A DNA stretch of 64,000 bases from Candidatus Liptonbacteria bacterium (GCA_016867315.1 VGJV01000004.1:37431-101430), one strand, 5' to 3'. Positions 30,904 through 44,838 are shown, counted from the stretch's first letter. Numbers and translations: made by a program. The notes: generated by a model not told the origin, from the sequence alone.

Positions 30904-31878
30904 TTGAAAACCAAAACTTTTCATTTCGAACGTGATACAATGTCCGGAATGGACGCCTTCTTTCCCTTATTACTCACGATCCTCGGCCTCTCGCTTTTTG
31001 AGATTGTCTCGAGTATCGACAACGCGGTTATTAACGCCGAAGTGTTGGGTACGATGTCGAAGCGGGGGAGGAGATGGTTTCTCCTTTGGGGATTTTTGTT
31101 TGCGGTGGTAATCGTCCGCGGGCTTCTCCCGTGGATTATTATTTGGGTGACGAGCCCCTCGCTTGGTCCCATCGGAGCGTTAACCGCCACCTTCTCGAAT
31201 GATCCAAAAGTTACCGAAGCCATAGAACACTCCGCCCCCATTCTCCTTGGAGGGGGAGGAATCTTCTTGGTATTTCTTTTTTTCCACTGGCTTTTTCTAG
31301 AACCCAAAAATTTTGGCCTCAAAGGGGAGCATTTCTTCTTTCGTAACAGCCTTTAGTTCTATGCGGTGGTCTCCGTGATTCTCACCGTGCTCGTCTGGTT
31401 TGCGATTAACCAAAATCCGTTGATGGCCTTCGGCATGGTAGTGGGCTCCACTGCCTTTTTCATTACGCACGGGTTTAAGCAAAATGCCGAATTAATGGAG
31501 GAAAAGCTCCTCCAAGGCCACGAGGGCGTGAAGTCAGACCTTTCGAAAATTCTCTATCTCGAAGTGATCGATGCTACATTTTCGATCGACGGCGTATTAG
31601 GAGCTTTTGCCTTCACCTTCTCCGTACCTCTCATTCTTTTAGGGAATGGCTTGGGTGCATTTGTGCTTCGGGAACTCACCATAAAAAACATTGAAACCGT
31701 AAAGAAATACAGATATTTGAAAAACGGCGCCATGTACGCGATCTTGGCTTTGGGACTCATCATGCTCGCCGATTCTTTCGGAATGCACTTGCCTCATTGG
31801 CTCTCTCCCGTGGCCACTTTCTTCATTATCGGCTACTTCTATTTCCGCTCCGTGCGCGAATTGAGGCAGTCCGCATAA
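30904..31878 (+). pseudogene. DUF475/TerC-like integral membrane protein interrupted by an in-frame TAG at 31357-31359
   Basis: ORFs 30904..31356 and 31366..31878 are in the same frame; both halves carry the duplicated EIVSSIDNAV / EVIDATFSIDGV motif of the two-repeat DUF475 family; joined length about 325 aa matches single-gene homologues. Confidence 0.5.
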
Positions 31879-31964: not shown

Positions 31965-32234
31965 ATGAGCCGCTCACTGCGCACGGGGATAGTAGTGGGA
32001 GTAATTATAGTGGTACTCGTATTAGGCGTCGCCTATTACTCTGGATTTATGGGTGGCACAAGTTCCACCGCCGAAGACCAAGCGGCAAAAGCGGCAGCCG
32101 AGAAAGAAGTACTGGCAAATACCGCCGCGGAACAAGCCGCGAAAGAAGCCAATCCTTTTGAAACGACGGTAAATCCATTGGAGAAAGTCGCGGATCCGCT
32201 CCAAAAAACCAAAGAAGTACTTAATCCCTTCTGA
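31965..32234 (+). CDS. hypothetical small membrane-anchored protein
   Basis: 89 aa, one N-terminal TM helix then A/E/K-rich low-complexity region. Confidence 0.35.
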   Translation: MSRSLRTGIVVGVIIVVLVLGVAYYSGFMGGTSSTAEDQAAKAAAEKEVLANTAAEQAAKEANPFETTVNPLEKVADPLQKTKEVLNPF

Positions 32235-33289
32235 TGAAGCGCCTCCTTATTGCGGCAAGCTTTCTTTTCATAGTGAGCGTGACGTACGCTCAAACCCCTG
32301 CAACTCCCGCCGAAAACCTCCAAAAAGCTCTGGAGGAGGTGAGTATGCTGGTGGGGAAATCCATCACGTCTCCCGCGGAAGCGAAGATAGTTTGTAACGC
32401 AGAAAAATTTTTGAACGCGTGCGCCCAAATCGGTAAAAAGTACAGTCTTTATGCGCCTCAAGAGCTCAAAAAGGTAGACGTCCTCCTCGAAGAAATCAAA
32501 GGGAATGTCTCAAAAACTCTGGAGAGCTGCGTGACCGATGATTGCGTACTCAAAGTCGCCGAAGAACTTACCACGCGGGTAACAAAAAAGAACCCGAAGT
32601 TAGCTGAAGAGCTCGATCTCACGAAAAAGAAAGTAACGGAACAGAAGGAAATAGCAAAAGCTGCGAAAGAAGTGGGGGTGGATATGAAAGTGTGTAGGGA
32701 AATGGACCCCGATGCTGCGCCTGTTGACATGCTTCGTGCGTGTGCAAAATTGGCGAAGCACCCCAAGGTGCAGGTGGCGATCCCTGAAGAAGTAAAAAGG
32801 GGAGTGGCATCTATCGATAAAACGGTAGAGTTAAAAGAAGCCCTTGCGAGAGGCGCAATTCAATGCGGCGACAATACGATCGAAGGGTGTGGCACATTTT
32901 GTTTGAAGCCCGCCGCAGGTGCTCGAGCACAAGGAATTCCCGCGGTGTGCTATGAGATTGCCAAAACCTACTTCGGCGAAGAAGGAGTCCGTACGCTTGA
33001 AGAGGCCTATAAAGGAGTAGAGGAAGCTGTAGATCGTTGTCGCGCGAATCCGGAGCAATGCGCAAAAGAAATTCAGCCGGAACCTAAAGTACCGGTGATA
33101 GTTCCTCTCCCTGAATCTCCCAAGACACCGAAGCTACCCGAACCTAAAGAGCCAGTAGCGTGTCCTACAGTAATGCCGCGCACCGCCCCTTGTCTTCCTG
33201 GCCAGACGCTCAAAAAGGAAGTGCTGCCGAACGGGTGTATCTCGGTGGGAACTTGTGAAGGCTCAATTCCCAGTGAAAATCGGGGGTAA
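32234..33289 (+). CDS. secreted cysteine-rich protein (signal peptide)
   Basis: MKRLLIAASFLFIVSVTYAQT signal peptide; 16 Cys; C-terminal CPTVMPRTAPCLPGQTLKKEV motif shared with the following gene. Confidence 0.5.
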   Translation: MKRLLIAASFLFIVSVTYAQTPATPAENLQKALEEVSMLVGKSITSPAEAKIVCNAEKFLNACAQIGKKYSLYAPQELKKVDVLLEEIKGNVSKTLESCVTDDCVLKVAEELTTRVTKKNPKLAEELDLTKKKVTEQKEIAKAAKEVGVDMKVCREMDPDAAPVDMLRACAKLAKHPKVQVAIPEEVKRGVASIDKTVELKEALARGAIQCGDNTIEGCGTFCLKPAAGARAQGIPAVCYEIAKTYFGEEGVRTLEEAYKGVEEAVDRCRANPEQCAKEIQPEPKVPVIVPLPESPKTPKLPEPKEPVACPTVMPRTAPCLPGQTLKKEVLPNGCISVGTCEGSIPSENRG

Positions 33290-35579
33290 GTCTTTCGCGG
33301 GATTGTCCGAAGCCATAGAAGGATGCAAAGTCATATTTAAAGGATCGACACTCGCTAATGCCGAGATCACGGAGACCGACCGGTACTGGTGTGGAGATAT
33401 AGTGAGTGTTTCTGCGCGTGGGACGCCCATCTCACAACCCAAGCCTCCGACGGTGTGTCCCGCGTTGCCCACTGTAGAGTCGTGTCCCGCAGGACAGAAA
33501 AAGGAGGTATCGTACAGCTCCCCCGAATGCGGTGAGTACTATACCTGCGTAGCCGAAAAGCCGCTTCCTACCCCCACCTCTACAAAACCGAGAGTATGCC
33601 CGGCATTGCCCACCGTAACCTCCTGTCCCGCGGGTACCACGAAAGTCCTTTCGTACAGTTCTCCGGAATGCGGCGAATATTACCGCTGTGTCTCCGATAC
33701 AGAGCCGGTGAGAGCTACAACTACCGCAAGCTCTACATGGGACAAGCCTCCAGCGGGGCAAAAGGAACAAATTTGGAACTCGCTGGGGCTCCGTTCCTGG
33801 ATACGCGTGGATGCGGACGTGAAACGCATCGAAGAAGTGAAACAATATTGTGCAAATGTGACTTCGAATTCCAACGTGTGGCTGCCGAAGGCGGGGGAAT
33901 ATGCAAGCGCAGACTTCGGCATGCCGGATCTCGCGAAATGTAAGCAAGCCAGTGCCTGTAAATCCAGTGAATACTGGAATGGCAGTTCCTGCGCCGCCGG
34001 GTGGGATTCACCCGGAACTACTTCTTCTACGTGGAATTCTTCGAGTACCTGGAACACTGAGTGCGAGCGAGCTGGGGGCACATGGGAAAAAGCAATGGGG
34101 TATTGTCGTATGCCGAACGCCTCTAGTACGAGAGCGATGGAAAAGCCCAGTGCGCCCGTGGAACTTTCCGCTACTGTAGCCGGCTCGGGAGTGACGCTTC
34201 AGTGGAATGATACCGGGACTTCTGAGGCCGAATTTAAAGTATGGCGGCGGGTGAAAGGAGGAGAGTGGATTTCTCATGACGCATTTCCCTCTCCCAAAAG
34301 TATGGCAACAGGAACCGTCTACTACAGCGATTCTAATGTGACAGCGGACTTTGTAGATTACAAAGTGCAGGCCTGCAATTATGGTGGATGTTCTGCCGAA
34401 TCGAATACCGTTTCGATAACGTTAGCGATAGGTGGGGGAGGTCTCGTGTGTCCTCCTGTAGTCGGTGCACTTTTAGGAAACGGCTGTCACGGAGTGGGAG
34501 ATGCCTGGTTTGACGGATATTCAGTGAACTACGTAATAGGGACAAGTACTCAAATTAAAAATTGTAATAGTACGTATGTAGCAGGTTGTGCCGCAGTCGC
34601 GACGAAAACGTATGATACGTCGCAGTCATGCCCGCCGGGACAATATTGGAGCGGCACCTCTTGTGCAGTTTCCTCCTCCTCTTCTTCCACGATGAGCACG
34701 CAAGGCGGTGTGTATACTCCTGCCGCGGGGCAAAAAGAGCAGGTTTGGAATTCTGCGGGCTTTCGCTCGTGGATTAGAGCCGACGCCGACCCCGCTCGTA
34801 TTGAGCAGGTGAGGGCTGCGTGTGCGAGCACTCCCATGAGTGCAAATGTGTGGTCATCCACTGCGGGGAATGCTTCAAGTTCAGACTTCGGGATGCCCGA
34901 TCCCGCAAAGTGTACGGCAGCGGCAAATTGCGGCTCGGGAGCCTACTTCAATGGCACGGGGTGTACCTCTTACACCACCCCCACCTATACCGGGGGAAGT
35001 ACGTATACGGGAACTAGTAGTTCGACCGCCGGGTTTAACACCCAATCCGGGTGTGCCGCGGCGGGAGGCACGTGGAGCGGCACAAATTGTTCTTGTCCGT
35101 CGGGAATGGCCTATAATGGTACTTCTTGCGCGGCGGGCACCTGGAGTTCGGGCAGTACGAATTACAGCTCGATGCAAAGCGGTTGTGCCACAGCGGGGGG
35201 TACCTGGAATAGCGCGTCCAATTATTGCCAAATGCCGGGAAGTAGTTCTTTGAGCTATTATTCGGGCTCAAACACGTATGACTACTCAAGCATGCAGGCA
35301 GGGTGTACATCTGCCGGTGGTACCTGGACGGGCACCTACTGCAACATGCCTTCGAGCGGAAATTGGAGTTCCGGCAGTATGAACAGTTTCAATACGGAAT
35401 CCGGCTGCGCTTCTGCCGGGGGCACGTGGAGCGGCACCTATTGCTCGTGTCCTTCGGGTAAGTGGTACAACGGCACCTCGTGCGTGACTTCGGCGGCGCC
35501 TAAGAAATCTTTCTTGGCAAATATTGGCGACAATCTCGATGGCTTCAGGCAGTTCGTGTGGAACCTCTTCGGGAGATAG
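33255..35579 (+). CDS. large secreted cysteine/Ser/Thr-rich surface protein with internal repeats and an FN3-like module
   Basis: 774 aa; duplicated CPALPTV(E/T)SCPAG...YSSPECGEYY units, duplicated AGQKEQ(I/V)WNS(L/A)G(L/F)RSWIR(V/A)DAD...FGMPD units, 5x SGC(A)xAGGTW(S/T)GTxC C-terminal repeats; GTG start overlaps previous gene. Confidence 0.55.
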   Translation: MKAQFPVKIGGKSFAGLSEAIEGCKVIFKGSTLANAEITETDRYWCGDIVSVSARGTPISQPKPPTVCPALPTVESCPAGQKKEVSYSSPECGEYYTCVAEKPLPTPTSTKPRVCPALPTVTSCPAGTTKVLSYSSPECGEYYRCVSDTEPVRATTTASSTWDKPPAGQKEQIWNSLGLRSWIRVDADVKRIEEVKQYCANVTSNSNVWLPKAGEYASADFGMPDLAKCKQASACKSSEYWNGSSCAAGWDSPGTTSSTWNSSSTWNTECERAGGTWEKAMGYCRMPNASSTRAMEKPSAPVELSATVAGSGVTLQWNDTGTSEAEFKVWRRVKGGEWISHDAFPSPKSMATGTVYYSDSNVTADFVDYKVQACNYGGCSAESNTVSITLAIGGGGLVCPPVVGALLGNGCHGVGDAWFDGYSVNYVIGTSTQIKNCNSTYVAGCAAVATKTYDTSQSCPPGQYWSGTSCAVSSSSSSTMSTQGGVYTPAAGQKEQVWNSAGFRSWIRADADPARIEQVRAACASTPMSANVWSSTAGNASSSDFGMPDPAKCTAAANCGSGAYFNGTGCTSYTTPTYTGGSTYTGTSSSTAGFNTQSGCAAAGGTWSGTNCSCPSGMAYNGTSCAAGTWSSGSTNYSSMQSGCATAGGTWNSASNYCQMPGSSSLSYYSGSNTYDYSSMQAGCTSAGGTWTGTYCNMPSSGNWSSGSMNSFNTESGCASAGGTWSGTYCSCPSGKWYNGTSCVTSAAPKKSFLANIGDNLDGFRQFVWNLFGR

Positions 35580-35669
35580 CCTTGTGTAGAGCTCTCGCTC
35601 GAGCGGAATGAATATGATATATTCATTCCGCTCCTTATTTGTTTGCTATACTCACTCTGCTCCTCGTTA

Positions 35670-35740
35670 GGGCCTATAGTTTAGTGGTAAAACACCTCAT
35701 TTGCAATGAGGAGATGGCAGTTCGATTCTGCCTAGGTCCA
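35670..35740 (+). tRNA. tRNA-Ala(TGC)
   Basis: GGGCCTA-TA-GTTTAGTGGTAAAAC-A-CCTCA-TTTGCAA-TGAGG-...-GGCAGTTCGATTCTGCC-TAGGTCC-A; anticodon UGC, G3:U70 alanine identity pair; no CCA encoded. Confidence 0.85.
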
Positions 35741-35806
35741 CATACCACAATACTCATCCGACAACGCCACAGATTATTTAACTTAAAAGTGCCGAAGGGC
35801 ATTAAG

Positions 35807-36238
35807 ATGGCCTACATTTGGGGTAAGGGCATCGGGGTACTTGCCGATAAGAATTTTAAGAGCGGCGAAACGGCGATCCATTTCCGCGCCGACACGGTCC
35901 CGAATTCCAAAGCGAGTCCCGAAGCGGTGCGTATCGATGAAAAGTGGAGCTACGACACCAAGTGGCTCACTGCCGAAGCTTTTATGAATCACAGCTGTGA
36001 TCCGAATACGAAATTGGATGTGGCGAAGAAAAGCTACGTGGCGATTAAGCCAATCAAGAAGAATGAGGAACTTACCTTCAACTACAACACGACTGAATGG
36101 GAATCGAGCGGGTTCGAATGTGCGTGCGGATCTAAGAAGTGTTACGGAGCGGTGAAAGGGCTAAAGCATCTCTCCCGAAAGAGACAAGAGGAGTTAAAAC
36201 CGTATCTCTTGCCCTTCTTGCGCAAGAAACTGAAGTAA
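35807..36238 (+). CDS. SET-domain protein (putative protein-lysine methyltransferase)
   Basis: NHSCDPN and EELTFNY motifs plus C-terminal Cys cluster CACGSKKC (post-SET); ORF-track start 35639 runs through the tRNA and is rejected, ATG at 35807. Confidence 0.7.
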   Translation: MAYIWGKGIGVLADKNFKSGETAIHFRADTVPNSKASPEAVRIDEKWSYDTKWLTAEAFMNHSCDPNTKLDVAKKSYVAIKPIKKNEELTFNYNTTEWESSGFECACGSKKCYGAVKGLKHLSRKRQEELKPYLLPFLRKKLK

Positions 36239-36630: not shown

Positions 36631-37188
36631 ATGGCGACGTCTTGGCAGAAAGATATAAAAGAAAAAGCCCGCGCGCCGCTCAAAGGCAACCTAGAGGCAG
36701 AGGTGATTATTTTGGGTGGGGGAATCACCGGCACGGTAAGCGCCTATTTGCTCGCGAATGAAGGCAAAAGGGTAATCCTTCTTGAGGCCGAAACTTTCGA
36801 TAAGAAAGGCGCTACGCCGGATACGACCGCGTTCATCACGCATGTGATCGACACCGCGTTGCCGGAACTGGTAAAACTTTTTGGCAGAGAAAAGGCCAAG
36901 GGAGTATGGGAGGCCGGCAAACAAGCGGTAGAGAAGATTGAGGACATCGTAAAAAAAGAAAAAATTGATTGTGAATTCACTCGAGTCCCGCAATACGAAT
37001 ACGCCCTCTCCAAAGGGGAGCTCAAGGAGATCAAGGAAGAAGTGAAGCTCGCGAAAGAATTTGGGTTTGAGGCGGAACTCCGAACCGGTGCCCCGCTGCT
37101 TTTTGCTGGACATAACCTAACACAAAAATTGAAACAGGTCAACATATTCGTGCCCTCGGAGGGAATTGAACCCCCATCTCTTCCTTAG
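36631..37188 (+). pseudogene. FAD-dependent oxidoreductase (DadA/ThiO-like), N-terminal fragment only, truncated at tRNA-Arg
   Basis: VIILGGGITGTVSAYLLANEGKRVILLEAE dinucleotide-binding motif; ORF only 185 aa and its last codons are the antisense of tRNA-Arg (EGIEPPSLP = reverse complement of T-arm). Confidence 0.55.
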
Positions 37189-37222
37189 GACGGAATAGCT
37201 CTATCCGTTGAGCTACGAGGGC
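37151..37222 (-). tRNA. tRNA-Arg(CCT)
   Basis: Minus strand GCCCTCG-TA-GCTCAACGGATAGAGC-T-ATTCC-GTCCTAA-GGAAG-AGAT-GGGGGTTCAATTCCCTC-CGAGGGC-A; anticodon CCU. Confidence 0.8.
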
Positions 37223-37292
37223 AGACAAACGAAGCGTAGCGTGAGGCGGTGTGGGTTGCAAGCGAACTACTCCTCGCCTAATATTACTCCCA

Positions 37293-37366
37293 CGGGCCTA
37301 TAGTAAAACGGTATTACGCGCCCATGGCATGGGCGAGGTCGGGGTTCGATTCCCCGTAGGTCCACC
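37293..37366 (+). tRNA. tRNA-Ala(GGC)
   Basis: GGGCCTA-TA-GTAAAACGGTATTAC-G-CGCCC-ATGGCAT-GGGCG-AGGTC-GGGGTTCGATTCCCC-GTAGGTCC-A-CCA; G3:U70; last 6 nt (CCACCA) are the first 6 nt of the 133-bp inverted repeat. Confidence 0.85.
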
Positions 37367-38870
37367 AAATTTGATTTGCTTCCGAATTGACCGCGCCCGC
37401 GCCAAAGGCGTGGGCTTGGGCTGGCATTTCCGCCAAGAAATTCCAAGGGTTTTTGAATTCCGCCAAAAGCATTCCCGCCGCGAGGCGGCGGTTCGAGCCG
37501 ATGGAAACAAGAAAATCTCTCATACCTGAGAGGTTTTCTTGTTTAGTGAGATTCAGGGCTTGGTTGGCTTCAATAATCCAGTTTCGCATGAGTTCGAGCC
37601 AATGATTGCCCTTGCGCTCAAAATCAGACAATCTCTCTTCCATTGTCTTCTTCTCTGCCATTAGAACATTCTTGCGTTCTTGATATTCCGCCAACTCCAA
37701 CGCTTCGGCTAAATATGCGTCCGTTAGCCGTTCCAGCTTTTCTTTAATGGCGGAAATACTATCGCGGAGATTTTGAGCGAAAAGGTTAGATGAGTGGCGG
37801 GATTCCGATTGCTCGCTTTCAAGGCGAGCAAGATATTTTTCCCGCCACTCATCGGGCAAAGAAACTTTTTGACAAAGATTTTTCACTTGTTCAGTTAGCA
37901 CTTCTTCACGCAAAAAGCGATTTTCAGTACAAGAAATAGTTTTGCTCTTGTGGGTGCAACGATAGTAAATAAATTTCAAACCACTTTTCTTTATGTGTCG
38001 CTCGGCGGTAATCGCGTATCCACATATCCCACAAGTAGCAAAACCTAAAAACTGAAAATTCTTAGGTCCTCGCTTTTTGCGGGGCTTTCCATTAGCGACA
38101 AGTGCGCTTTGGATTTGATCAAAAAGTTTCTTTGAAATCATTGGCTTATGCGATCCGGCATGCACCTCGCCACGATATTCAAAATGGCCGTAGTAAAAGG
38201 GATTGGTTAAAATATGTTCAACGGAGGCAAGGGCGAGGGGCTTGCCGGTCTTGCCAACCAAGCCGAGAGAAAACATTTTGCGCTGAATACCAGTGAGCGT
38301 AAATTGTCCTGTAGCAAAAGCCTCCAAACCCTCTTTTACTTTACGAAACGTCTTTTTATCAGGTTCAATCGTGCGAAGCCTCGGTTCGTTAAAATAACCG
38401 ATTGGAGCTTTTGCCGATAATTCACCACGGCGTATCTTTTGCCGAATACCGCGCAAAATGTTTTCTCTTAAATTGTCGGTGTAATATTTTGCCTGTCCGA
38501 AGGCAACGCTCAACATAAACTTCCCTTGTGGTGTCGCTTCAAACCAAAATGTCGGGAATTTTAGCGCAACAATTTTTTGAGTATCCACAAAATAGATAAC
38601 CTTGCCACCGTCAATCGAATTTCTCGCCAAACGATCTGGATTCCACGCTAAGATTCCCGACGCAACACCTTTTTCAATTTCGCCAAGCATTTCGTTAAAT
38701 ACTTCACGACCAGGCTCTTTTGCCGTCTTGCTCTCGTAATACTCACGGACGATAAATAACCCCTGTTGCTTGGCGTATTCCCGAAGCTCCGTCAGTTGCG
38801 CCTCAATACTCAAAACTTGGCGTTCTTCGTCCTCTGATGATTTCCTGCAATAGATAAAATATTTGACCAT
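37314..38870 (-). CDS. large serine recombinase (resolvase-like catalytic domain + recombinase domain + zinc ribbon + coiled coil)
   Basis: MVKYFIYCRKSSEDEERQ...SIEAQ catalytic Ser motif, DRLARN, C-x2-C...C zinc ribbon; 518 aa from ATG 38870; C-terminal 17 codons are antisense to tRNA-Ala(GGC) (..TYGESNPDLAHAMGA*). Confidence 0.85.
   Translation of the reverse strand: MVKYFIYCRKSSEDEERQVLSIEAQLTELREYAKQQGLFIVREYYESKTAKEPGREVFNEMLGEIEKGVASGILAWNPDRLARNSIDGGKVIYFVDTQKIVALKFPTFWFEATPQGKFMLSVAFGQAKYYTDNLRENILRGIRQKIRRGELSAKAPIGYFNEPRLRTIEPDKKTFRKVKEGLEAFATGQFTLTGIQRKMFSLGLVGKTGKPLALASVEHILTNPFYYGHFEYRGEVHAGSHKPMISKKLFDQIQSALVANGKPRKKRGPKNFQFLGFATCGICGYAITAERHIKKSGLKFIYYRCTHKSKTISCTENRFLREEVLTEQVKNLCQKVSLPDEWREKYLARLESEQSESRHSSNLFAQNLRDSISAIKEKLERLTDAYLAEALELAEYQERKNVLMAEKKTMEERLSDFERKGNHWLELMRNWIIEANQALNLTKQENLSGMRDFLVSIGSNRRLAAGMLLAEFKNPWNFLAEMPAQAHAFGAGAVNSEANQIWWTYGESNPDLAHAMGA
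37361..37493. repeat. 133-bp perfect inverted repeat, left arm (starts with tRNA-Ala CCACCA; contains recombinase 3' coding end)
   Basis: CCACCAAATTTGATTTGCTTCCGAATTGACCGCGCCCGCGCC...GAGGCGGCGGTTC; exact reverse complement at 38973-39105. Confidence 0.9.
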
Positions 38871-38972
38871 AGCTTCGGGAATTAAATTGATAAAAGGTGT
38901 TGCCTTACACCGACAATTTCTAATCTCACCGCATCGGCTCCTGTGCGAAGCACAGAACAAGCGTTAGCTTGT

Positions 38973-39105
38973 GGAACCGCCGCCTCGCGGCGGGAATGCT
39001 TTTGGCGGAATTCAAAAACCCTTGGAATTTCTTGGCGGAAATGCCAGCCCAAGCCCACGCCTTTGGCGCGGGCGCGGTCAATTCGGAAGCAAATCAAATT
39101 TGGTG
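38973..39105. repeat. 133-bp perfect inverted repeat, right arm (about 100 bp upstream of recombinase start)
   Basis: Exact reverse complement of 37361-37493; produces artefactual ORFs 38943..39191(+), 38969..39154(+) and 38882..39376(-) that duplicate the recombinase C-terminus. Confidence 0.9.
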
Positions 39106-39425
39106 GTGTTTGTTTGAAAAAGTCAGAACCCATTTCGAGCAGAATCCCGACTAATGTGGCACGCGCGGAGCGCGTGGTGGCTCTGAACTGAATCGTACGC
39201 TCCGATTGCGCCTCGGGCGCGCTCGCGGACTCGCGCGGGCAAAACCCAAAAATTTTCCTTCCTTTCTGATTTAATTCGGCGGGGGGTGTGGGGGGAGCCG
39301 ACAAAAAATGGAAAGGAAATTTTTGGTTTTGCTTCGCCGCTTCCATATTGAGAATATCTACAAATTTTGCTATCATAGTATTGTAGTTAGTATATCACAA
39401 ATAATGCTAGCAATGTATTGAAACT

Positions 39426-39623
39426 ATGGCAACGATTGGCGAAAACATCAAAAAAGTACGAAATAAGCTTGGCTTGACCCAAGATGATTTAGTCAGAAAG
39501 TCAGGCGTAAAACACACTACCCTTACCAAAATTGAGAGTAATGTTGTGGTCAAGCCAAGCGTTCAGACGGTCGCAAAGATCGCCAAGGCGTTGGGCATTC
39601 CAATGGAAGAATTTTTAAAATAA
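39426..39623 (+). CDS. XRE-family helix-turn-helix transcriptional regulator
   Basis: 65 aa; IKKVRNKLGLTQDDLVRKSGVKHTTLTKIESN = classic Cro/C1-type HTH. Confidence 0.8.
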   Translation: MATIGENIKKVRNKLGLTQDDLVRKSGVKHTTLTKIESNVVVKPSVQTVAKIAKALGIPMEEFLK

Positions 39624-39627
39624 TTTT

Positions 39628-40545
39628 ATGAATATGGAAAAAGGACCAGAAGTAAGAATTGTCGGCGGAGCTTCTGCCGAGAAAAAAGAGCAAGTAAAAA
39701 AAGAAATTGAGCAAGCTCTTTTTAGCCATTTTGAATCTCTTTCGCCGCAAGAGCGAGAACAATTTGAAAAATTTGAATATCCAAAATCTGAAAAAGAGAT
39801 TGCTCTTATCAGTTTCGCTAATGAAGAAACATCTCGACTAATGCAGGAAGCAGGAATTGAGCCGTATGATGTTCCTGTAGATAATTTCCATATCATTCCT
39901 CCAGAGTTATATAAAAAATCTGCGGGCGACGGTGGAACGGCGACGACATTCAATACAAAACAAGGAATAATTTTTGACGCAGAACATTTTCGTGATAATC
40001 CAGTACATTTTGGCGCTGTCGCCCTTCACGAATCGTTACATCTCAAAGCACATTTTTCTATGGAAGTTCAAGAGGATGGCGACAAAGTGAATAAGACACC
40101 ATACCGCGAGGGCGTGACAGTGCGTGCTTTACAAAGTCACGGTTATCACGGGAAATATCATCAACACTTTGCCGGATTGCATGAGGGCATAGTGGCCGAA
40201 ACTGAAAAAAAGTTCTTAGGGAAACTTCTTGATCGCCCAGAACTTGCAAAAGAAAAGGAGTGGTTGACTTCTGACGAAGCAAAAGAAATGAGAAAAAAGT
40301 TGGCGACAGAAAAAGAATTGTCGGAGGACGATATTATTTGGGTTGGCAAAAAAGGAAAAGATGACTGGGAAACTGTTTCGTATCTTCAACAGAGAAATGT
40401 GCTCAATTATGTCTGCGACGAGATACAGAAACAGTTTCCCGACGAATATCAGAACGCAGACGATGTTTACAAAGTTTTTCTCAACGCTCACTTTACTGGT
40501 AGACTTTTGCCTCTTGCGCGTTTAGTGGAAAAAACTTTTGGCTAG
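39628..40545 (+). CDS. hypothetical protein with HExxH zinc-metallopeptidase-like motif (possible ImmA/IrrE-like partner of the XRE regulator)
   Basis: 305 aa; VALHESLHL (HExxH) is the only recognisable motif; immediately downstream (4-nt spacer) of the XRE gene. Confidence 0.45.
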   Translation: MNMEKGPEVRIVGGASAEKKEQVKKEIEQALFSHFESLSPQEREQFEKFEYPKSEKEIALISFANEETSRLMQEAGIEPYDVPVDNFHIIPPELYKKSAGDGGTATTFNTKQGIIFDAEHFRDNPVHFGAVALHESLHLKAHFSMEVQEDGDKVNKTPYREGVTVRALQSHGYHGKYHQHFAGLHEGIVAETEKKFLGKLLDRPELAKEKEWLTSDEAKEMRKKLATEKELSEDDIIWVGKKGKDDWETVSYLQQRNVLNYVCDEIQKQFPDEYQNADDVYKVFLNAHFTGRLLPLARLVEKTFG

Positions 40546-42338
40546 ACAATTTCGGCAGTATAGCACTGTTCGCAGAATACAACTTCTGATCGCTTCGGCG
40601 CATAGGAAGTCATGAATTTATTGGGACAATGATTGTCGTTATGAAAATGGCTAGCGGTATTTTCATAGGTGCCGCTTTCGGACTTTGATCCTGCGCAAGC
40701 ACACTTACGACTATAAAACTCAACTGAATTGCGAGCCAGCGAAGATTCGAAATTTCTCGTATTCGGACACTTTCTCGGCAAAGGCAAATTCCACTTCTTG
40801 TATATAGCAAACTCGTTTGGAGTAATTTTAAAAGCCATCGAACACTTATGCTCTTGTGCCGATTTCTTATCAGTGCCCCATGCCTCGCAAAGAATTACAT
40901 CTGAAAGAATTGATTCAGAAACTTCAACAATGGACTCTGGCAATTCTTTCCAACTTTTTGTAACATTGTAACTTTTTTCTTCCGCTTCATACCAAGAATA
41001 TCCAAACTCATTCGCTAGTTCTCTTGAAACGGGTACGTATTCTTGAGCAAGGGTTTCGTTGTAGCTATGCGGACTTATTTCAATGGGAAACATCTCGCCA
41101 TAAGTGTATGTTCTCCCTTTGCTATCGGCATAAGGCATCGTCGACATTTGAGCAATAATTTTCTCCCGAAGCTTTTTATAGGTTTTTTCATCGTACTGCT
41201 TGTTCAAAATACAATATTCTTTCTTGCGAATCGAGATGCAACCAAAAGAATTGCTGGCGTGATCGCAATCTGCAAGATAATCTGAATTTATATTGTTTTC
41301 GCCATTTACACTGAAAAAGCAGCGCGATGAGAAATCAATATTGTTGCATTCATAGGCAAGCTCGCCTGCGTGAACACCAAATACGTCCATCGCGTCCTTT
41401 TGGCCTTTTCCTCCACGAACTGCATATTTCTCATTCTCACCATCGTTAATGTAGAAGGAAAGAAAAACATTTTTGCAGCCATAAATAAACTCGCCTGAAA
41501 CATTGGCGTTACGTTCTCCCGTCATGAATTTATGGATGGCATTTTCTCTGACAGATTTTCTGAATTCAAGCAATGCTTTTTGAAGTGCGGTGTGGGAGCT
41601 GAAGGTTTCCCGTTTTATTTTTTCGAATTCTTCTTTGGTAACCTGTTTATTGAAAACATAATAACTCTTGTTGCGTAGGTTAAAACTGAACAGACAGTTT
41701 TGGCAGTTGCGACAATCATAGAGAAATGCTGACCCGTAACAATTGGAGCATTTTTGACTAAAATGAGTAAGATTGCATTTTGTGCAATCAACTGATGCAA
41801 AACACTGTTCGCAGTTCTTAATAAACAGGCAATCCCAGCAATCTTTACTTTCAAGAACAGTTTGACCGTAACCACAGTTTTCAGAAAACCAACTCCCGAA
41901 CATGAGATATCCACCCTTCATGTGGGCTGTGTAGTTGCAATAATCACTGTCCACGTTGCCAGTGGCATACACAGCTGGTTTTGGCACTACTTGCTGCAAT
42001 TCTTTGAACTGTAAAAAAAATGGTTTGTTGAAGTCATATTCTCGGCCATACGAAAGTGGATCCCATTTATCACTCCACCAGCATTCATGGCAGTATACAG
42101 GGAAAGTAACATCTACTCGATACATGGATATAACATTTTTCTTGCATAAATCGCACGTTCTTCGGTACAAGGAACGCTCGTTACGCCAAACTAGCCGCCG
42201 CGCCAAGCGACATTTCCAGCAAAAAGTTGGAGGCGGGATTTTAACCCTTTCGTAAAAACTAAAATCCTCCGGCTCTATCACGAACTGGCTTTTGCAGTTT
42301 TGACACTGACGATTTTCCGAATTCATTATTTCTATCAT
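40542..42338 (-). CDS. cysteine-rich hypothetical protein (598 aa) with N- and C-terminal zinc-ribbon-like CxxC pairs and a central Cys-repeat region
   Basis: 40 Cys; CQNCKSQ...CWKC, CDLCKK...CHEC, CWDC...CEQC...CTKC...CSNC...CRNCQNC, C-terminal CPNK...CEQC; no family recognised. Confidence 0.5.
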   Translation of the reverse strand: MIEIMNSENRQCQNCKSQFVIEPEDFSFYERVKIPPPTFCWKCRLARRLVWRNERSLYRRTCDLCKKNVISMYRVDVTFPVYCHECWWSDKWDPLSYGREYDFNKPFFLQFKELQQVVPKPAVYATGNVDSDYCNYTAHMKGGYLMFGSWFSENCGYGQTVLESKDCWDCLFIKNCEQCFASVDCTKCNLTHFSQKCSNCYGSAFLYDCRNCQNCLFSFNLRNKSYYVFNKQVTKEEFEKIKRETFSSHTALQKALLEFRKSVRENAIHKFMTGERNANVSGEFIYGCKNVFLSFYINDGENEKYAVRGGKGQKDAMDVFGVHAGELAYECNNIDFSSRCFFSVNGENNINSDYLADCDHASNSFGCISIRKKEYCILNKQYDEKTYKKLREKIIAQMSTMPYADSKGRTYTYGEMFPIEISPHSYNETLAQEYVPVSRELANEFGYSWYEAEEKSYNVTKSWKELPESIVEVSESILSDVILCEAWGTDKKSAQEHKCSMAFKITPNEFAIYKKWNLPLPRKCPNTRNFESSLARNSVEFYSRKCACAGSKSESGTYENTASHFHNDNHCPNKFMTSYAPKRSEVVFCEQCYTAEIV

Positions 42339-42876
42339 GTCTCTGATTCAGCCAAAAGTAAATCCGGCGAGCGGGCAAAAAGTGGAAGGGGGTACGAGGG
42401 GGAGGGAAACTTTTTGCCCACGAGCCGTGATAATCCCCGCCGCCCTGCTCGCAGAGAGCAGAGCCACGCAAAATACTCTTTACGATTTCTGATTTCGCGC
42501 GCGCCAAAAAAATGATTCTGAAAAAGGAAAAGAGTATTTTGCGTGGCGGCGAGCGTCAGCGAGCGGCGGGGTGGTCTGGCGTTCCGCTCTCTTTCTCCTG
42601 TCGCTCGTAAAAGGTGCGAGCGAAGTGTATAATTAGTCCACGCCATGCTTCAACCACTTCAAAAACTCCACGACCGCATTGCAGGGAAATACCCCCACTT
42701 CAAATTTATAATCGGGATCGTTTTGATCCTCGTAGGATTTGTGGCGCTCGTTACGCCTCTTACGCCAGGATCATGGCTCGCGCTGGTAGGGTTGGAATTG
42801 GTGGGAATTCGGGTCTTAACTGGGAAATGGTTTAAGGCTTTATTTTCTCGTCGTCCCCGCGTAGAATAGCGCCTAG

Positions 42877-42963
42877 GGAAGCGTGGCAGAGTGGTCGAAT
42901 GCGCCGCACTCGAAATGCGGTATACCGGAAACGGTATCGGAGGTTCGAATCCTCCCGCTTCCG
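42877..42963 (+). tRNA. tRNA-Ser(CGA)
   Basis: GGAAGCG-TG-GCAGAGTGGTCGAATGC-G-CCGCA-CTCGAAA-TGCGG-long variable arm TATACCGGAAACGGTATC-GGAGGTTCGAATCCTCC-CGCTTCC-G; anticodon CGA. Confidence 0.85.
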
Positions 42964-42967
42964 CCGA

Positions 42968-43611
42968 ATGATTAAGGCTATTATTTTTGATTTAGATGGT
43001 CTCCTGATTGATTCTCAGCATTTGCAGTATGAGGCAACGAGCAGAGCTTTTTCTGAAAGGGAGTGTTCTTTGACAAAGGAAGATTGGGATCATTTTATTC
43101 ATGGAAGTATGGATTATAAGGAATGGATAGAGCTTCACCACTTGCCAATAACAGTGGAAGAAGTTCGGGCGAGAAAAAAGAGATTTATGACGAGCTAATA
43201 AAAACTGAGCTTCAGCTAAAAGTGGGAGCTCGGGAATTAATTAATACCGTGTATGGTAAATTTAAGCTCGCTGTTGCCTCACATTCCAGAATTGAATCCA
43301 TAGAGCTTTGCATTAATAAATTTAATTTAAAATCCAAATTCGAACATGTAGTTTCTGATCAAGCGGTGGGCAAAAGGAAGCCTCACCCAGAAGTCTTTTT
43401 ACATGTCGCAAATGTAATGAATATGGAGCCAGAAAAGTGTCTTGTATTTGAAGATTCCTTGATGGGTTTAAAAGCGGCGAAATCCGCAGGTATGAAATGC
43501 ATTGTGTGTCCTGACAGTTTTAGCAATCTCGACCACGCATTGTTTGATGGTGCCGATAGAATAGTCTCCTCGTTATATGAAGTTGATTTAGAAATGATTA
43601 CCAAATTTTAA
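42968..43611 (+). pseudogene. HAD-superfamily hydrolase (beta-phosphoglucomutase-like) split by a frameshift in an A6 run (43174-43179)
   Basis: MIKAIIFDLDGLLIDSQ (motif I DxDG) in frame of ORF 42899..43198; motifs II-IV (SHSR, KRKPHPEVF, VFEDSLMGLKAAKSAGM) in the +1 frame ORF 43123..43611; A6 to A7 gives ...EEVRARKKEIYDELIKTELQL... continuous. Confidence 0.65.
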
Positions 43612-43687
43612 TTGAATAACATCCGCTTCCAAAAATTCTTCAAGCGGGACTTTGTTATAATCAAAATATTCAAAGGTCGAAGGAAAA

Positions 43688-44083
43688 GTGGGGATAAATA
43701 GTACTATGAACCCTAAGCAATTTCTTCAGATCGGTGGAGTGGTATTGGTGCTCGTGGGAATCCTCGGCTTCGTAGGAGTTTTGGGTCCTACAGCAGACAA
43801 GAGCATATTCGGAGAAGGATGGTGGTTCGATAACGCCGAAAACTGGGCGCACCTAGTGATCGGCATCATCGCCCTCATTGCCGTCTATGCCATTGGCGCA
43901 GAAGCTCAAAAGCCTCTGGTGGTCGTGGTGGGAGTCGTAGCAGTCCTTGCAGGACTCTACAGCATCTTCCAGCCGGCACTCTTAGGTGCGAACCTCGAGA
44001 ATCCGGCGGACACGATTCTGCACCTCGTGGTGGGAGTCTGGGCCTTAATTGCAGCTCGAGGGAAGACAGGAATGGCGATGTAA
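43688..44083 (+). CDS. hypothetical small membrane protein (4 TM helices)
   Basis: 131 aa, hydrophobic, G/V-rich helices. Confidence 0.4.
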   Translation: MGINSTMNPKQFLQIGGVVLVLVGILGFVGVLGPTADKSIFGEGWWFDNAENWAHLVIGIIALIAVYAIGAEAQKPLVVVVGVVAVLAGLYSIFQPALLGANLENPADTILHLVVGVWALIAARGKTGMAM

Positions 44084-44174
44084 GGGATAGTAGGTAGAAA
44101 GTAGTATGTAGTAGGTAGTAGAGCAAAATCCCGTAACGAACGGGATTTTGCTTCAAAAAGAGGGGTTTGTTAAA

Positions 44175-44246
44175 GTGGGGGAGCGCCGGAGTAGCTCAAT
44201 GGCAGAGCAACACTTTTGTAAAGTGAAGGTTGGAGGTTCGACTCCT
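44175..44246 (+). tRNA. tRNA-Thr(TGT)
   Basis: GCCGGAG-TA-GCTCAATGGCAGAGC-A-ACACT-TTTGTAA-AGTGA-AGGTT-GGAGGTTCGACTCCTCT-CTCCGGC-T; anticodon UGU. Confidence 0.85.
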
Positions 44247-44298
44247 CTCTCCGGCTCATGAAATTCACCCCCCACACCAAAAATTTATATGCACTAAG

Positions 44299-44712
44299 AT
44301 GAGAGGGATAAAGAACAGTGCAAAACTAAAGGGTGTAACGAGCAAGCCCATGGTGTGGGGGTTCAAACACACAAGTTACGATTTCGAACGGGAATACCCG
44401 AAACTCGTGCGCGATCGAATCCCTGAAATTCTCCAGAAAAAAGGAGAAAAGCGAAAATTTGATATTCTTAAAAACGACAAAGAATTTCTCGTGCACCTTT
44501 TTAAAAAACTCACCGAGGAATCGATAGAGCTCCAGAAATCTGTAGAGCATAACAATTGGGAGGAAGAGCTGGCGGATATATTTGAAGTGCTCGAAACGAT
44601 TCTTCGAGTGAAAAAGAGGAGCCGAAAAGAAATTGCTGTGATTCAAAAAAAGAAAAGGAATCTACGAGGGGGTTTTAGGAAGCGTTTTCTTATGCTCAAA
44701 AAAGAAGTTTAG
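44299..44712 (+). CDS. MazG-like nucleoside triphosphate pyrophosphohydrolase domain protein
   Basis: EEELADIFEVLETIL resembles the EExxE/D all-alpha NTP-PPase motif; ORF-track start 44230 overlaps the tRNA, ATG at 44299 preferred. Confidence 0.4.
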   Translation: MRGIKNSAKLKGVTSKPMVWGFKHTSYDFEREYPKLVRDRIPEILQKKGEKRKFDILKNDKEFLVHLFKKLTEESIELQKSVEHNNWEEELADIFEVLETILRVKKRSRKEIAVIQKKKRNLRGGFRKRFLMLKKEV

Positions 44713-44766
44713 AGAAGGTTTATAGTTTTGACCCTCAGAGTAAAGAATAGTAAACTGAGCGTGCTC

Positions 44767-44838
44767 GCCAGAGTAGTTCAGTGGCAGAACACTTTCATGG
44801 TAAGAAAGGGGTCGGGAGTTCGATTCTCCCCTCTGGCT
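44767..44838 (+). tRNA. tRNA-Thr(GGT)
   Basis: GCCAGAG-TA-GTTCAGTGGCAGAAC-A-CTTTC-ATGGTAA-GAAAG-GGGTC-GGGAGTTCGATTCTCCC-CTCTGGC-T; anticodon GGU. Confidence 0.85.

What the first reader, a model, noticed from the sequence alone, without database searches (positions are those of the whole stretch)
32234..35579. Pair of secreted cysteine-rich repeat proteins, likely a cell-surface adhesin system
- 32234-33289 has a signal peptide and 16 Cys.
- 33255-35579 (774 aa) has no TM segment but contains duplicated about 35-aa CP-x-LPTV-x-SCPAG...SSPECGEYY units, duplicated about 70-aa AGQKEQ-WNS-G-RSWIR-DAD...FGMPD units, an FN3-like segment, and five C-terminal SGC-x-AGGTW-GT-C repeats, amid long S/T/N stretches with many N-x-S/T sites.
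- The first protein ends with the same C-P-x3-P-C-x-G-Q-x-KKEV motif that starts the repeats of the second. The second ORF is open in its own frame for about 25 codons upstream, so the two may once have been a single larger gene.
- For an episymbiotic CPR-type cell such proteins are candidates for host attachment.
Basis: partly seen in the sequence, partly recalled or inferred. Interest (0 to 1): 0.55.

Follow-up and report, generated by a model that had tools for sequence, protein, structure and literature searches.

The report
Frameshift-split secreted cysteine-rich envelope protein gene
The two "proteins" are the two halves of one gene for a ~1,100-residue secreted, disulfide-rich protein that is found only in Parcubacteria-type CPR bacteria and has no known function; here a 5-base deletion breaks the gene, and its real, conserved partner is the small membrane-protein gene just upstream.

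Summary

The ORFs are not a gene pair. About 70 of 98 ORF2 homologues are single 800-1,300-aa proteins whose N-terminus is homologous to ORF1. The closest one (P0002, 60% identical) reads straight across the junction. The window is 5 nt shorter there (about 33267/33268), which shifts the frame. ENA, Logan, JGI and NCBI assemblies carry the identical split. It is therefore most likely a real frameshift that truncates or inactivates the gene.

The family is restricted to Patescibacteria and has no core Pfam or NCBIfam domain. Its parts are:
- a Sec signal peptide;
- a confidently modelled all-alpha N-terminal domain with no PDB neighbour;
- disulfide beta-hairpin units;
- one or two highly conserved "AGQ...FGMPD" modules;
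- an amphipathic C-terminal helix.

An 85-105-aa membrane protein with an NPF-motif tail lies directly upstream in every N-terminal-domain locus where the upstream region could be read (window plus 17). It is absent at 2 of 2 loci that lack this domain.

An envelope or attachment role is plausible but untested. The finding is ordinary to moderately interesting.

The parts
31965..32234 (+). Small partner gene (89 aa). It has an N-terminal TM helix (Kyte-Doolittle hydropathy (KD) 2.6 over 19 aa), an A/E/K-rich segment, and a conserved tail NPF..NPL..V..(N/D)P(F/L)..K..LNPF. Its TGA stop overlaps the ATG of ORF1 by one base.
   Evidence: Homologous 85-105-aa genes lie 0-12 nt upstream of the large gene in window, L003, L004, L005, L007, L009, L010, L013 and L014. 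The tail motif was found directly upstream in 9 further intact GTDB loci (10 counting L026, whose large gene changes frame at an N gap). It is absent at the two loci that lack the N-terminal domain, L011 and L012. The stop/start overlap is visible in the sequence.
32234..32293 (+). Sec signal peptide of the large protein (ORF1 aa 1-20, MKRLLIAASFLFIVSVTYA|Q).
   Evidence: Hydrophobic core KD 1.6. The A-x-A|Q-T site is conserved in the homologues' N-termini. Low pLDDT over aa 1-20.
32294..33073 (+). N-terminal all-alpha domain (NTD, ORF1 aa 21-280) with conserved cysteines (e.g. C154, C170, C223, C239 are invariant).
   Evidence: AlphaFold2 pLDDT is >90 over about aa 21-280. Foldseek finds no PDB neighbour (best E 1.4, TM <0.2). 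Homologous to the N-terminus of 70/98 ORF2 homologues. 133 cluster representatives match it in 1.84 billion proteins, almost always at the very N-terminus.
33161..33256 (+). First, degenerate CP unit (ORF1 aa 310-341, CPTVMPRTAPCLPGQTLKKEVLPNGCISVGTC), a disulfide beta-hairpin.
   Evidence: Aligns with the first CP unit of the homologues. Modelled as a beta-hairpin, E325-330 / E336-342.
33260..33272 (+). Frameshift site. The window reads GGCTCAAT|TCCCAG. The intact orthologue (L003) has 5 more nt between GGC and TCCC. Upstream the coding frame is that of ORF1; from 33264 (CAA) it is that of ORF2.
   Evidence: tblastn of P0002 switches frame here. DNA comparison with L003.
33269..33289 (+). Out-of-frame tail of ORF1 (PSENRG plus TAA). 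It has no counterpart in the homologues.
   Evidence: P0002 continues QFPVKIAGK, which matches the ORF2 frame (QFPVKIGGK) and not the ORF1 frame.
33264..35579 (+). C-terminal 771 codons of the same gene (the ORF2 frame). NCBI calls the start at the GTG at 33273 (768 aa). This part has no signal peptide.
33453..33692 (+). CP units 2 and 3 (ORF2 aa 67-99 and 114-146, VCPALPTVxSCPAG..SYSSPECGEYYxCV), separated by a P/T linker.
   Evidence: 27/33 residues identical. Modelled as beta-hairpins with pLDDT about 90. The unit is present in 86/98 homologues.
33744..33983 (+). AGQ module 1 (ORF2 aa 164-243, PPAGQKEQIWNSLGLRSWIRVDAD...DFGMPD..KC..C..YWNGSSC), the most conserved module of the family.
   Evidence: Present in 89/98 homologues, 14 of them with two copies. 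pLDDT 93-98, a small alpha/beta domain. No PDB or BFVD structural neighbour.
34143..34430 (+). FN3-like insertion (ORF2 aa 297-392), an accessory domain that is rare in the family.
   Evidence: Found only in the window protein, in P0042 and in unrelated fn3-positive S8 peptidases. Poorly modelled.
34437..34592 (+). 'GCH' module (ORF2 aa 395-446, LVCPPVVGALLGNGCHGVGDAWFDG...NC...GC).
   Evidence: Present in 57/98 homologues. pLDDT 86-91.
34716..34955 (+). AGQ module 2 (ORF2 aa 488-567).
   Evidence: 46/80 residues identical to module 1, with scrambled third codon positions. pLDDT 94-98.
35037..35489 (+). Four SGCxxAGGTWxGTxC units interleaved with CPSGxxYNGTSC hairpins and S/T/G/Y-rich linkers. 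A fifth AGGTW unit lies at 34059-34115.
   Evidence: (DNA copies 68-73% identical).
35505..35579 (+). Conserved C-terminal amphipathic helix (KSFLANIGDNLDGFRQFVWNLFGR) plus the stop codon.
   Evidence: Equivalent tails occur in most homologues. Modelled as a helix at aa 749-770. Hydrophobic moment 1.51 vs 0.60 for shuffles; 0.35% of shuffles reach the observed value.

Best explanation
Window 32234-35579 is one gene, not two.

The gene and its family. It encodes a protein of about 1,116 aa. The protein belongs to an uncharacterised family of secreted, disulfide-rich, modular proteins restricted to Patescibacteria, mostly Parcubacteria-type lineages.

What happened here (shown). Relative to the intact orthologue, this Liptonbacteria genome lacks 5 nt at about 33267/33268. 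The reading frame therefore shifts, and ORF1 ends 6 out-of-frame codons later.

Consequence (inferred). Only the signal peptide, the all-alpha N-terminal domain and the first CP hairpin (351 aa) can be exported. The remaining 771 codons hold CP hairpins, two AGQ modules, the FN3 insertion, the GCH module, the AGGTW units and the C-terminal amphipathic helix. They have no signal peptide. If they are translated at all from an internal GTG, the product would stay in the reducing cytoplasm, where a 40-Cys extracellular-type polypeptide is unlikely to work. The locus is therefore most likely a recently inactivated or truncated allele.

How the intact protein probably works (inferred).
- It is exported by Sec and cleaved after A-x-A.
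- It is oxidised into a chain of small disulfide-stapled modules separated by S/T/P linkers.
- It is held at the cell surface by the co-transcribed, translationally coupled small bitopic membrane protein. That protein's external NPF-motif tail co-occurs strictly with the N-terminal domain. The C-terminal amphipathic helix may also contribute.
- The AGQ modules would be the ligand-binding parts. They also occur in relatives that carry PG_binding_1, which suggests a cell-wall or glycan ligand.
For: One gene:
- blastp of ORF1 against the 98 ORF2 homologues hits the N-terminus of 67-70 of them (E 1e-137 to 1e-9). These are single proteins of 800-1,350 aa.
- P0002 (60% identical) aligns with the ORF1 frame up to ...GTCEGSI and continues in the ORF2 frame from QFPVKIGGK.
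- The L003 DNA has 5 extra nt exactly there.
- 9 of the 12 GTDB loci that carry the N-terminal domain are single uninterrupted ORFs.

Real rather than an assembly slip:
- ENA (76.5 kb contig) and Logan (the same contig in 3 runs) assemblies are 100% identical to the window over 11.8 and 6.8 kb.
- The exact ORF1 protein occurs on 4 contigs from NCBI, JGI/IMG, Logan and ENA.

Recent event in a formerly selected frame:
- QFPVKIGG in the ORF2 frame is conserved with P0002 through synonymous changes.
- The repeats are conserved at the protein level while their third codon positions are scrambled.
- The 771-codon frame is still open.

Gene decay nearby:
- The TerC gene has a TGG->TAG nonsense change at a conserved Trp.
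- The DAO gene is truncated next to a serine recombinase.

Extracytoplasmic nature:
- Conserved signal peptide; 4.6-5.2% Cys; FN3.
- PG_binding_1 or CBM_14 in relatives.

Partner gene:
- (present at every N-terminal-domain locus where the upstream region could be read), against (absent at loci without the domain).
Against: - No reads were available. A minority intact allele, or a systematic consensus error shared by assemblies of the same or sibling samples, cannot be excluded.
- ORF2 has stayed open for 771 codons, and GTG codons at 33255 and 33273 lie next to the ORF1 stop. Re-initiation, and some function for a separate product, are therefore not excluded.
- A second split member (L017) hints that disruption may recur. 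That would fit on/off variation rather than simple decay.
- The surface-anchoring and ligand-binding roles are inferred only from co-occurrence and domain context. No structural or sequence neighbour of known function was found.
Confidence: 0.75

Rival explanations
1. This is a genuine two-protein system. ORF1 is a secreted protein. ORF2 is translated separately, from the GTG at 33255 or 33273 by coupling to the ORF1 stop, and the two work together at the surface.
For: Both frames are long and open. The ORFs overlap by 35 nt with GTG codons near the ORF1 stop. ORF2 keeps all family modules intact. NCBI annotates two genes.
Against: - ORF2 has no signal peptide or TM segment, although it consists of extracellular-type disulfide modules.
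- About 70 homologues and 9 of 12 GTDB loci with the N-terminal domain are single ORFs.
- The break falls inside a stretch that is colinear with P0002 and leaves a 6-residue out-of-frame tail.
- No clear ribosome-binding site precedes either GTG.
Confidence: 0.08
2. The split is a sequencing, assembly or consensus artefact. The real genome carries the intact ~1,116-aa gene.
For: MAG consensus sequences can carry indels. Two other GTDB loci change frame at N gaps, and L017 changes frame at an A5 run. The independent assemblies may derive from the same or sibling libraries.
Against: - A 5-nt deletion in non-homopolymer sequence is not a typical short-read error.
- Four different assembly pipelines give the identical sequence, and the Logan contig appears in three runs.
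- The neighbouring TerC gene carries a substitution-type nonsense mutation, which an indel artefact cannot produce.
Confidence: 0.08
3. The frameshift is a switch rather than a dead end. Either slipped-strand loss and gain of a 5-nt unit (TCAAT-TCAAT) gives phase variation of a surface protein, or a +1 ribosomal slip (tRNA-Pro from CCC 33269-71 to CCA 33270-72) restores some full-length product.
For: - Re-inserting TCAAT gives GGC TCA ATT CAA TTC CCA GTG = GSIQFPV, colinear with P0002 GTIQFPV. That ancestor would have held a tandem 5-nt repeat (inference).
- CCC-A allows Pro-tRNA re-pairing in the +1 frame and would yield ...GSIPVKIGGK (sequence).
- A second family member is split at an A5 run.
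- Surface proteins are classic targets of phase variation (general knowledge).
Against: - Only one copy of the 5-nt unit is present now, so reversion would need a duplication.
- No intact allele was found: exact-flank scans of the JGI contigs gave 0 hits, although these scans did not retrieve the split allele either, so they are uninformative.
- No stimulatory element sits at prfB-like spacing; GAAGG ends 7 nt before CCC.
- The shift is not conserved in any homologue.
Confidence: 0.07

Closest known systems
Large secreted cysteine-rich proteins of CPR bacteria (described for Peribacteria/Peregrinibacteria, PMC4736985)
   Same: They are signal-peptide-bearing proteins of 1,000 aa or more with several per cent Cys. 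They lack functional annotation, occur in CPR genomes, and are proposed to act in attachment. Strain-level variation was noted.
   Different: That paper describes a compositional class, not this family. Homology to those proteins was not tested here. This family has its own modules (N-terminal domain, CP hairpins, AGQ, GCH) and a dedicated small membrane partner. All hits were in Patescibacteria MAGs (Liptonbacteria, Kaiserbacteria, Vogelbacteria, Zambryskibacteria, Campbellbacteria, Harrisonbacteria, Uhrbacteria and others).
PG_binding_1 (PF01471)-containing Patescibacteria proteins that carry the same CP unit and AGQ modules (e.g. P0009, P0011, P0022, P0042, P0072)
   Same: They share the CP unit, one or two AGQ modules, CxSGQYWNGSxC hairpins and the C-terminal tail.
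   Different: They have a peptidoglycan-binding domain in place of the all-alpha N-terminal domain. They are not preceded by the small NPF-tail gene. The window protein has no PG_binding_1.
Gram-positive sortase-anchored (LPXTG) modular adhesins (MSCRAMM-type)
   Same: They have an N-terminal signal peptide, a string of small repeated extracellular domains that includes Ig/FN3-like folds, and S/T-rich linkers.
   Different: This family has no LPXTG motif, hydrophobic stretch or positive tail in the window protein or in any of the 98 homologues. It has many disulfides instead of isopeptide-type domains. The presumed retention by a separate small membrane protein is inferred, not shown.
BP39L / PLL-family seven-bladed propeller lectins (PDB 6gxr)
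   Same: The short motif AASNQFGIPNQT, repeated in each blade, resembles AGxxSSxDFGMPDP of the AGQ module. The summed score is 28 bits.
   Different: Each stretch is individually insignificant (i-E of 250 or more). The AGQ module is modelled as a small alpha/beta domain, not a propeller blade, and Foldseek found no match. This is a lead only.

Membership tests
Unnamed Patescibacteria 'N-terminal domain (NTD) - CP - AGQ' secreted protein family (P0002, P0006 and others) | N-terminal all-alpha cysteine-containing domain after a signal peptide | tested here: met
   ORF1 aa 4-345 match P0002 aa 7-329 at 60% identity (E 1.6e-137). 67 hits with E < 1e-8, 70 by phmmer, and 133 cluster representatives.
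Unnamed Patescibacteria 'N-terminal domain (NTD) - CP - AGQ' secreted protein family (P0002, P0006 and others) | CP hairpin unit(s) and at least one AGQ...FGMPD module, colinear with the homologues | tested here: met
   CP units at ORF1 aa 310-341 and ORF2 aa 67-99 and 114-146. AGQ modules at ORF2 aa 164-243 and 488-567.
Unnamed Patescibacteria 'N-terminal domain (NTD) - CP - AGQ' secreted protein family (P0002, P0006 and others) | All parts encoded in one uninterrupted ORF | tested here: not met
   The frame changes at about 33267, where the window is 5 nt shorter than L003. The window holds a disrupted member.
Unnamed Patescibacteria 'N-terminal domain (NTD) - CP - AGQ' secreted protein family (P0002, P0006 and others) | Small TM protein with an NPF..NPL..NPF..LNPF tail encoded immediately upstream | tested here: met
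   Window 31965-32234, with overlapping stop and start. Aligned with 7 orthologues. The motif lies upstream in 9 further intact loci, 10 counting L026.
Unnamed Patescibacteria 'N-terminal domain (NTD) - CP - AGQ' secreted protein family (P0002, P0006 and others) | Conserved amphipathic C-terminal tail | tested here: met
   KSFLANIGDNLDGFRQFVWNLFGR compared with the family tails.
Fibronectin type III domain (Pfam PF00041), as in the NCBI product name | Score above the Pfam gathering threshold for fn3 | tested here: not met
   There is no fn3 hit for the whole protein, and none for the isolated segment even at E up to 10; the best hit is Ig_7 at E 0.035.
Fibronectin type III domain (Pfam PF00041), as in the NCBI product name | Homology to bona fide fn3 domains | tested here: met
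   phmmer E 1e-9 to 1e-15 to the three tandem segments of the S8 peptidases P0091-P0093, which Pfam calls fn3. The fold model of this segment has low confidence.
Sortase-dependent LPXTG surface proteins | C-terminal LPXTG motif followed by a hydrophobic segment and a basic tail | tested here: not met
   No LPxTG in ORF1 or ORF2 and none within the last 60 residues of the 98 homologues. The C-terminus is an amphipathic helix.
S-layer / SLH-anchored proteins and PG_binding_1 proteins | SLH or PG_binding_1 domain | tested here: not met
   No Pfam or NCBIfam hit in ORF1 or ORF2. PG_binding_1 occurs only in relatives that lack the N-terminal domain.
Programmed +1 ribosomal frameshift genes (prfB type) | Frameshift conserved among homologues, with a slippery codon at an in-frame stop and a closely spaced SD-like stimulator | tested here: not met
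   The homologues are in a single frame. The shift point lies 6 codons before the stop, and GAAGG ends 7 nt upstream of CCC.
PLL/BP39L propeller lectins | Seven-bladed beta-propeller built of about 50-aa repeats | tested here: not met
   Only a 15-23-aa motif is shared. The modelled secondary structure is alpha/beta and there is no Foldseek hit.

The most novel reading that the evidence does not exclude
The small NPF-tail membrane protein and the large protein built from the all-alpha N-terminal domain and the CP and AGQ modules together form a previously undescribed surface apparatus specific to Parcubacteria. In it a bitopic anchor would hold a disulfide-stapled, glycan- or cell-wall-binding stalk used to attach to host cells or particles. 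The gene would be switched off, or possibly back on, by frameshifts, as in this genome and in L017. The all-alpha N-terminal domain and the AGQ module would then be new folds or ligand-binding modules.
Probability: 0.2. Interest if true: 0.6.

Novelty: new member of a known kind. Interest (0 to 1): 0.3.

Why it matters
For annotation, MBM3257318.1 and MBM3257319.1 should be merged and flagged as one frameshifted gene. The product name 'FN3 domain-containing protein' describes only a rare accessory insertion.

For biology, the work defines an uncharacterised, CPR-restricted family of secreted proteins. It has a confidently predicted N-terminal domain and an AGQ module, neither with a solved structural neighbour, and a strictly co-occurring small membrane partner. 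CPR bacteria are thought to live attached to hosts, and very little is known about their surface proteins apart from type IV pili. The family is therefore a reasonable candidate for experiments on envelope structure or attachment.

The particular copy in this window is probably a broken one. It sits in a stretch with two other damaged genes, so by itself it says more about gene decay in this genome than about function.

Tried and rejected
- Pfam, NCBIfam, PHROGs and PADLOC scans of ORF1 and ORF2 gave nothing significant.
- The small protein gave only weak, composition-driven Rz-like spanin hits (E 7e-5, a TM helix plus an A/E/K coil). I treat this as an analogy of topology, not as homology.
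- Sequence and profile searches against PDB chains gave only the BP39L short-motif match, which I rejected as evidence of homology.
- The word-indexed homology searches with ORF1 and with the AGQ profile returned few hits because of index limits. The exhaustive representative search was used instead.
A narrower AGQ alignment worked.
- Exact-flank scans of the JGI metagenome contigs for alternative alleles at the junction gave 0 hits twice. The split allele was not retrieved either, so these scans are uninformative. P0216 turned out to be the same protein with V instead of M as first residue.
- A crude Shine-Dalgarno survey of the window was uninformative about ORF2 start sites.
- Frame changes in L026 and L028 were discarded because they coincide with runs of N.

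Full report
**1. What is in the sequence**

ORF1 (32234-33289, +, 351 aa) and ORF2 (33255-35579, +, 774 aa from a GTG) exist as described. They lie in different frames and overlap by 35 nt. ORF1 has 16 Cys and ORF2 has 40, which is 4.6% and 5.2% of residues.

ORF1 begins with a Sec-type signal peptide, MKRLLIAASFLFIVSVTYA|QT. Its A-x-A|Q-T cleavage context recurs in the family consensus.

- The two CP units share 27/33 residues (Smith-Waterman 152 vs 23.7 +/- 5.0 in shuffles).
- The two AGQ...FGMPD modules share 46/80 residues (253 vs 26.0 +/- 4.8).

The third codon positions of the copies are nearly randomised (10/33 and 31/80 identical). The DNA copies of the AGGTW units are only 68-73% identical. 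The duplications are therefore old and maintained by selection on the protein.

- Only four of the five AGGTW units are C-terminal.
- The FN3-like segment does not reach Pfam's fn3 model itself. It is homologous to fn3-positive repeats of S8 peptidases.
- The N-x-S/T excess is modest: 14 observed vs 8.6 expected, p about 0.03. Five of the 14 sites lie next to a conserved Cys in a disulfide hairpin or the GCH module.

ORF2 has no convincing TM segment and no LPxTG motif.

**2. The two ORFs are one gene**

ORF2 has 98 homologues, almost all unnamed proteins from Patescibacteria MAGs (three are unrelated S8 peptidases that match only the FN3 segment). Most are 800-1,350 aa, which is longer than ORF2. 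ORF1 hits the extreme N-terminus of 67-70 of those same proteins, with E from 1.6e-137 to 1e-9.

An exhaustive HMMER search of 1.84 billion representatives with ORF1 found 133 clusters. The match lies at the very N-terminus of the hit in almost all of them, and the full-length hits are 700-1,733 aa.

The closest relative, P0002 (823 aa, 60% identical), reads ...GCAVVGNCVGTIQFPVKIAGKVF... The window matches it in the ORF1 frame up to ...GCISVGTCEGSI. It continues in the ORF2 frame from QFPVKIGGKSF.

At the DNA level the two sequences compare as follows:
- L003: TGTGTCGGCACAATCCAGTTCCCGGTGAAAATA
- window: TGTGAAGGCTCAAT-----TCCCAGTGAAAATC

The window is 5 nt shorter between GGC and TCCC. ORF1 then runs 6 out-of-frame codons (PSENRG) into a TAA. 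Joining the frames gives about 1,116 aa, which is typical of the family. Re-inserting TCAAT would give GSIQFPV, colinear with GTIQFPV. This suggests, as inference only, the loss of one copy of a tandem 5-nt repeat.

**3. Real or artefact?**

An ENA megahit contig (76.5 kb) and a Logan contig (assembled identically from three runs) are 100% identical to the window over 11.8 kb and 6.8 kb. The exact 351-aa product is on record on four contigs from NCBI, JGI/IMG, Logan and ENA. A 5-nt deletion outside a homopolymer is not a usual short-read error.

Two neighbouring genes are also damaged:
- TerC/DUF475 (30904-31878) has an in-frame TAG where the 82%-identical intact orthologue has Trp.
- A DAO-family gene (36631-37188) retains only its first ~158 residues. 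It lies next to two tRNA genes, a large serine recombinase and a low-GC block.

I therefore read the frameshift as a genuine and probably recent mutation in a region of relaxed selection. It looks recent because the ORF2 frame is still open for 771 codons. Read-level data were not available. My exact-flank scans of the JGI contigs found neither allele.

**4. The family and its real partner**

The core of the family has no Pfam, NCBIfam, PHROGs or PADLOC match. The module census among the 98 homologues is:
- N-terminal domain: 70
- CP unit: 86
- AGQ module: 89, of which 14 carry two copies
- GCH module: 57
- FN3: only the window protein and P0042

Relatives that lack the N-terminal domain carry PG_binding_1 instead, and one member carries CBM_14.

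Structure models:
- AlphaFold2 models the N-terminal domain as an all-alpha domain with pLDDT >90 over aa 21-280. Foldseek finds nothing in the PDB (best E 1.4).
- In the ORF2 model the AGQ modules are small alpha/beta domains with pLDDT 93-98 and the CP units are beta-hairpins.
- The extreme C-terminus is a conserved amphipathic helix.
- Neither the PDB nor BFVD gives a structural neighbour for the ORF2 model.
- A profile of the AGQ module touches only a short repeated motif of the BP39L propeller lectin. I regard that as a lead, not as homology.

The conserved genetic partner is the 89-aa gene at 31965-32234, whose stop codon overlaps the ORF1 ATG. It encodes an N-terminal TM helix, an A/E/K-rich segment and an invariant tail, NPF..NPL..V..(N/D)P(F/L)..K..LNPF. 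Homologues sit 0-12 nt upstream of the large gene in all eight other N-terminal-domain loci that I inspected. The tail motif also lies directly upstream in 9 further intact GTDB loci, or 10 counting L026. The gene is missing at the two PG_binding_1-type loci.

**5. Distribution and other split copies**

A GTDB species-representative scan with the AGQ profile returned 16 loci, all in Patescibacteria MAGs. Twelve of them carry the N-terminal domain:
- Nine are single uninterrupted ORFs.
- Two change frame at runs of N, which are scaffold gaps.
- One (L017) changes frame right after the N-terminal domain at an A5 run. This could be real or an error.

The family norm is therefore one gene.

**6. 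Mechanism**

Shown:
- It is one gene, frameshifted here.
- It has extracytoplasmic hallmarks.
- It has a strictly co-occurring small membrane-protein gene.

Inferred:
- The intact protein is exported by Sec and becomes heavily disulfide-bonded.
- It is displayed on the cell envelope, tethered by the small bitopic protein (N-terminal domain bound to the NPF tail) and/or by its own C-terminal amphipathic helix.
- The AGQ modules act as binding units, perhaps for cell-wall or glycan ligands, given the PG_binding_1 and CBM_14 context.
- In this genome only the N-terminal 351-aa fragment can be exported, so the full function is most likely lost.

Alternatives are kept at low probability:
- a functional two-protein arrangement;
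- a consensus artefact;
- phase variation, or a +1 slip at CCC-A (33269-33272).

**7. Comparison with the literature, and verdict**

Large, secreted, cysteine-rich proteins without annotation have been noted in CPR genomes and proposed to mediate attachment (Peribacteria, PMC4736985). Many CPR-enriched families are membrane or extracellular proteins of unknown function (bioRxiv 10.1101/335083). The present locus is a disrupted member of one such family.

The useful new points are:
- the corrected gene model;
- the definition of the modules, including two confidently modelled domains without solved neighbours;
- the conserved small partner gene.

The adhesin role remains a hypothesis. Interest is modest (0.3), and it would rise if the partner-anchored surface apparatus were confirmed.

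Noticed in passing
window 30904-31878 (+): The TerC/DUF475 membrane-protein gene is interrupted by an in-frame TAG at 31354-31356 (NSL*FYAV). The 82%-identical orthologue in L003 is a single 304-aa gene with Trp at that position (NGLWFYAM), so this is a TGG->TAG nonsense change. It is a second damaged gene within 2 kb of the finding.
   Followed up: yes
window 36631-38960 and about 38000-46000: A DAO-family FAD oxidoreductase ORF is only 185 aa long. Only aa 3-158 of a 422-aa homologue match, and no C-terminal half is found anywhere in the window. The ORF runs into tRNA-Arg(cct) at 37150-37222 (-). Next come tRNA-Ala(ggc) at 37294-37367 and a large serine recombinase at 37314-38960 (-), then a low-GC block (0.41-0.45 against about 0.50). 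This is probably an integrated mobile element that truncated the gene.
   Followed up: partly
L017 about 5340-5370 (GTDB MAG contig CAYLXU010000027.1): A second family member is split. The N-terminal domain (P0070 aa 1-264) is in one frame and the rest (aa 268 onward) in another. The switch is at an A5 run (GAGTACAAGAAAAATATG) and there are no Ns. It could be a homopolymer error or a real frameshift.
   Followed up: partly
window 31965-32234 (+): The small partner protein gives weak PHROGs hits to Rz-like spanins (E 7e-5 to 6e-3) and weak NCBIfam hits to GltJ and FliL-like bitopic proteins. These appear to be driven by its TM helix and A/E/K-rich segment. Its invariant NPF/NPL/LNPF tail has no match in any library.
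   Followed up: partly
window 35670-35741 and 35639-36238 (+): tRNA-Ala(tgc) lies directly downstream of the large gene. It is followed by a 143-aa SET-domain (PF00856) protein gene, which is unusual in bacteria. The listed 199-aa ORF overlaps the tRNA, so the real start is further downstream.
   Followed up: no
P0009 aa about 385-450; P0074 aa 624-715: Some relatives that lack the N-terminal domain carry a strongly diverged third copy of the AGQ module (HxWxFxxG...YILNRTDxEY...AGxDAAxNWQNFGIPxC). Its NWQNFGIP motif is closer to the SNQFGIPNQ blade motif of the BP39L lectin than the canonical DFGMPDP is.
   Followed up: no
many homologues, aa about 280-400 (e.g. P0049, P0031, P0014): Most Kaiserbacteria-type members carry an extra ~100-aa segment after the N-terminal domain: FTTxDGRxLxDPxxIGRYxEExGxxGxVEAVxxGMDFLxxxGFVxxxDxxFAxxMVxKxKExGxxDFxxCRxDPxxC. 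The window protein and P0002 lack it. They instead share a lineage-specific QFPVKIGGK...DRYWCGD linker.
   Followed up: no
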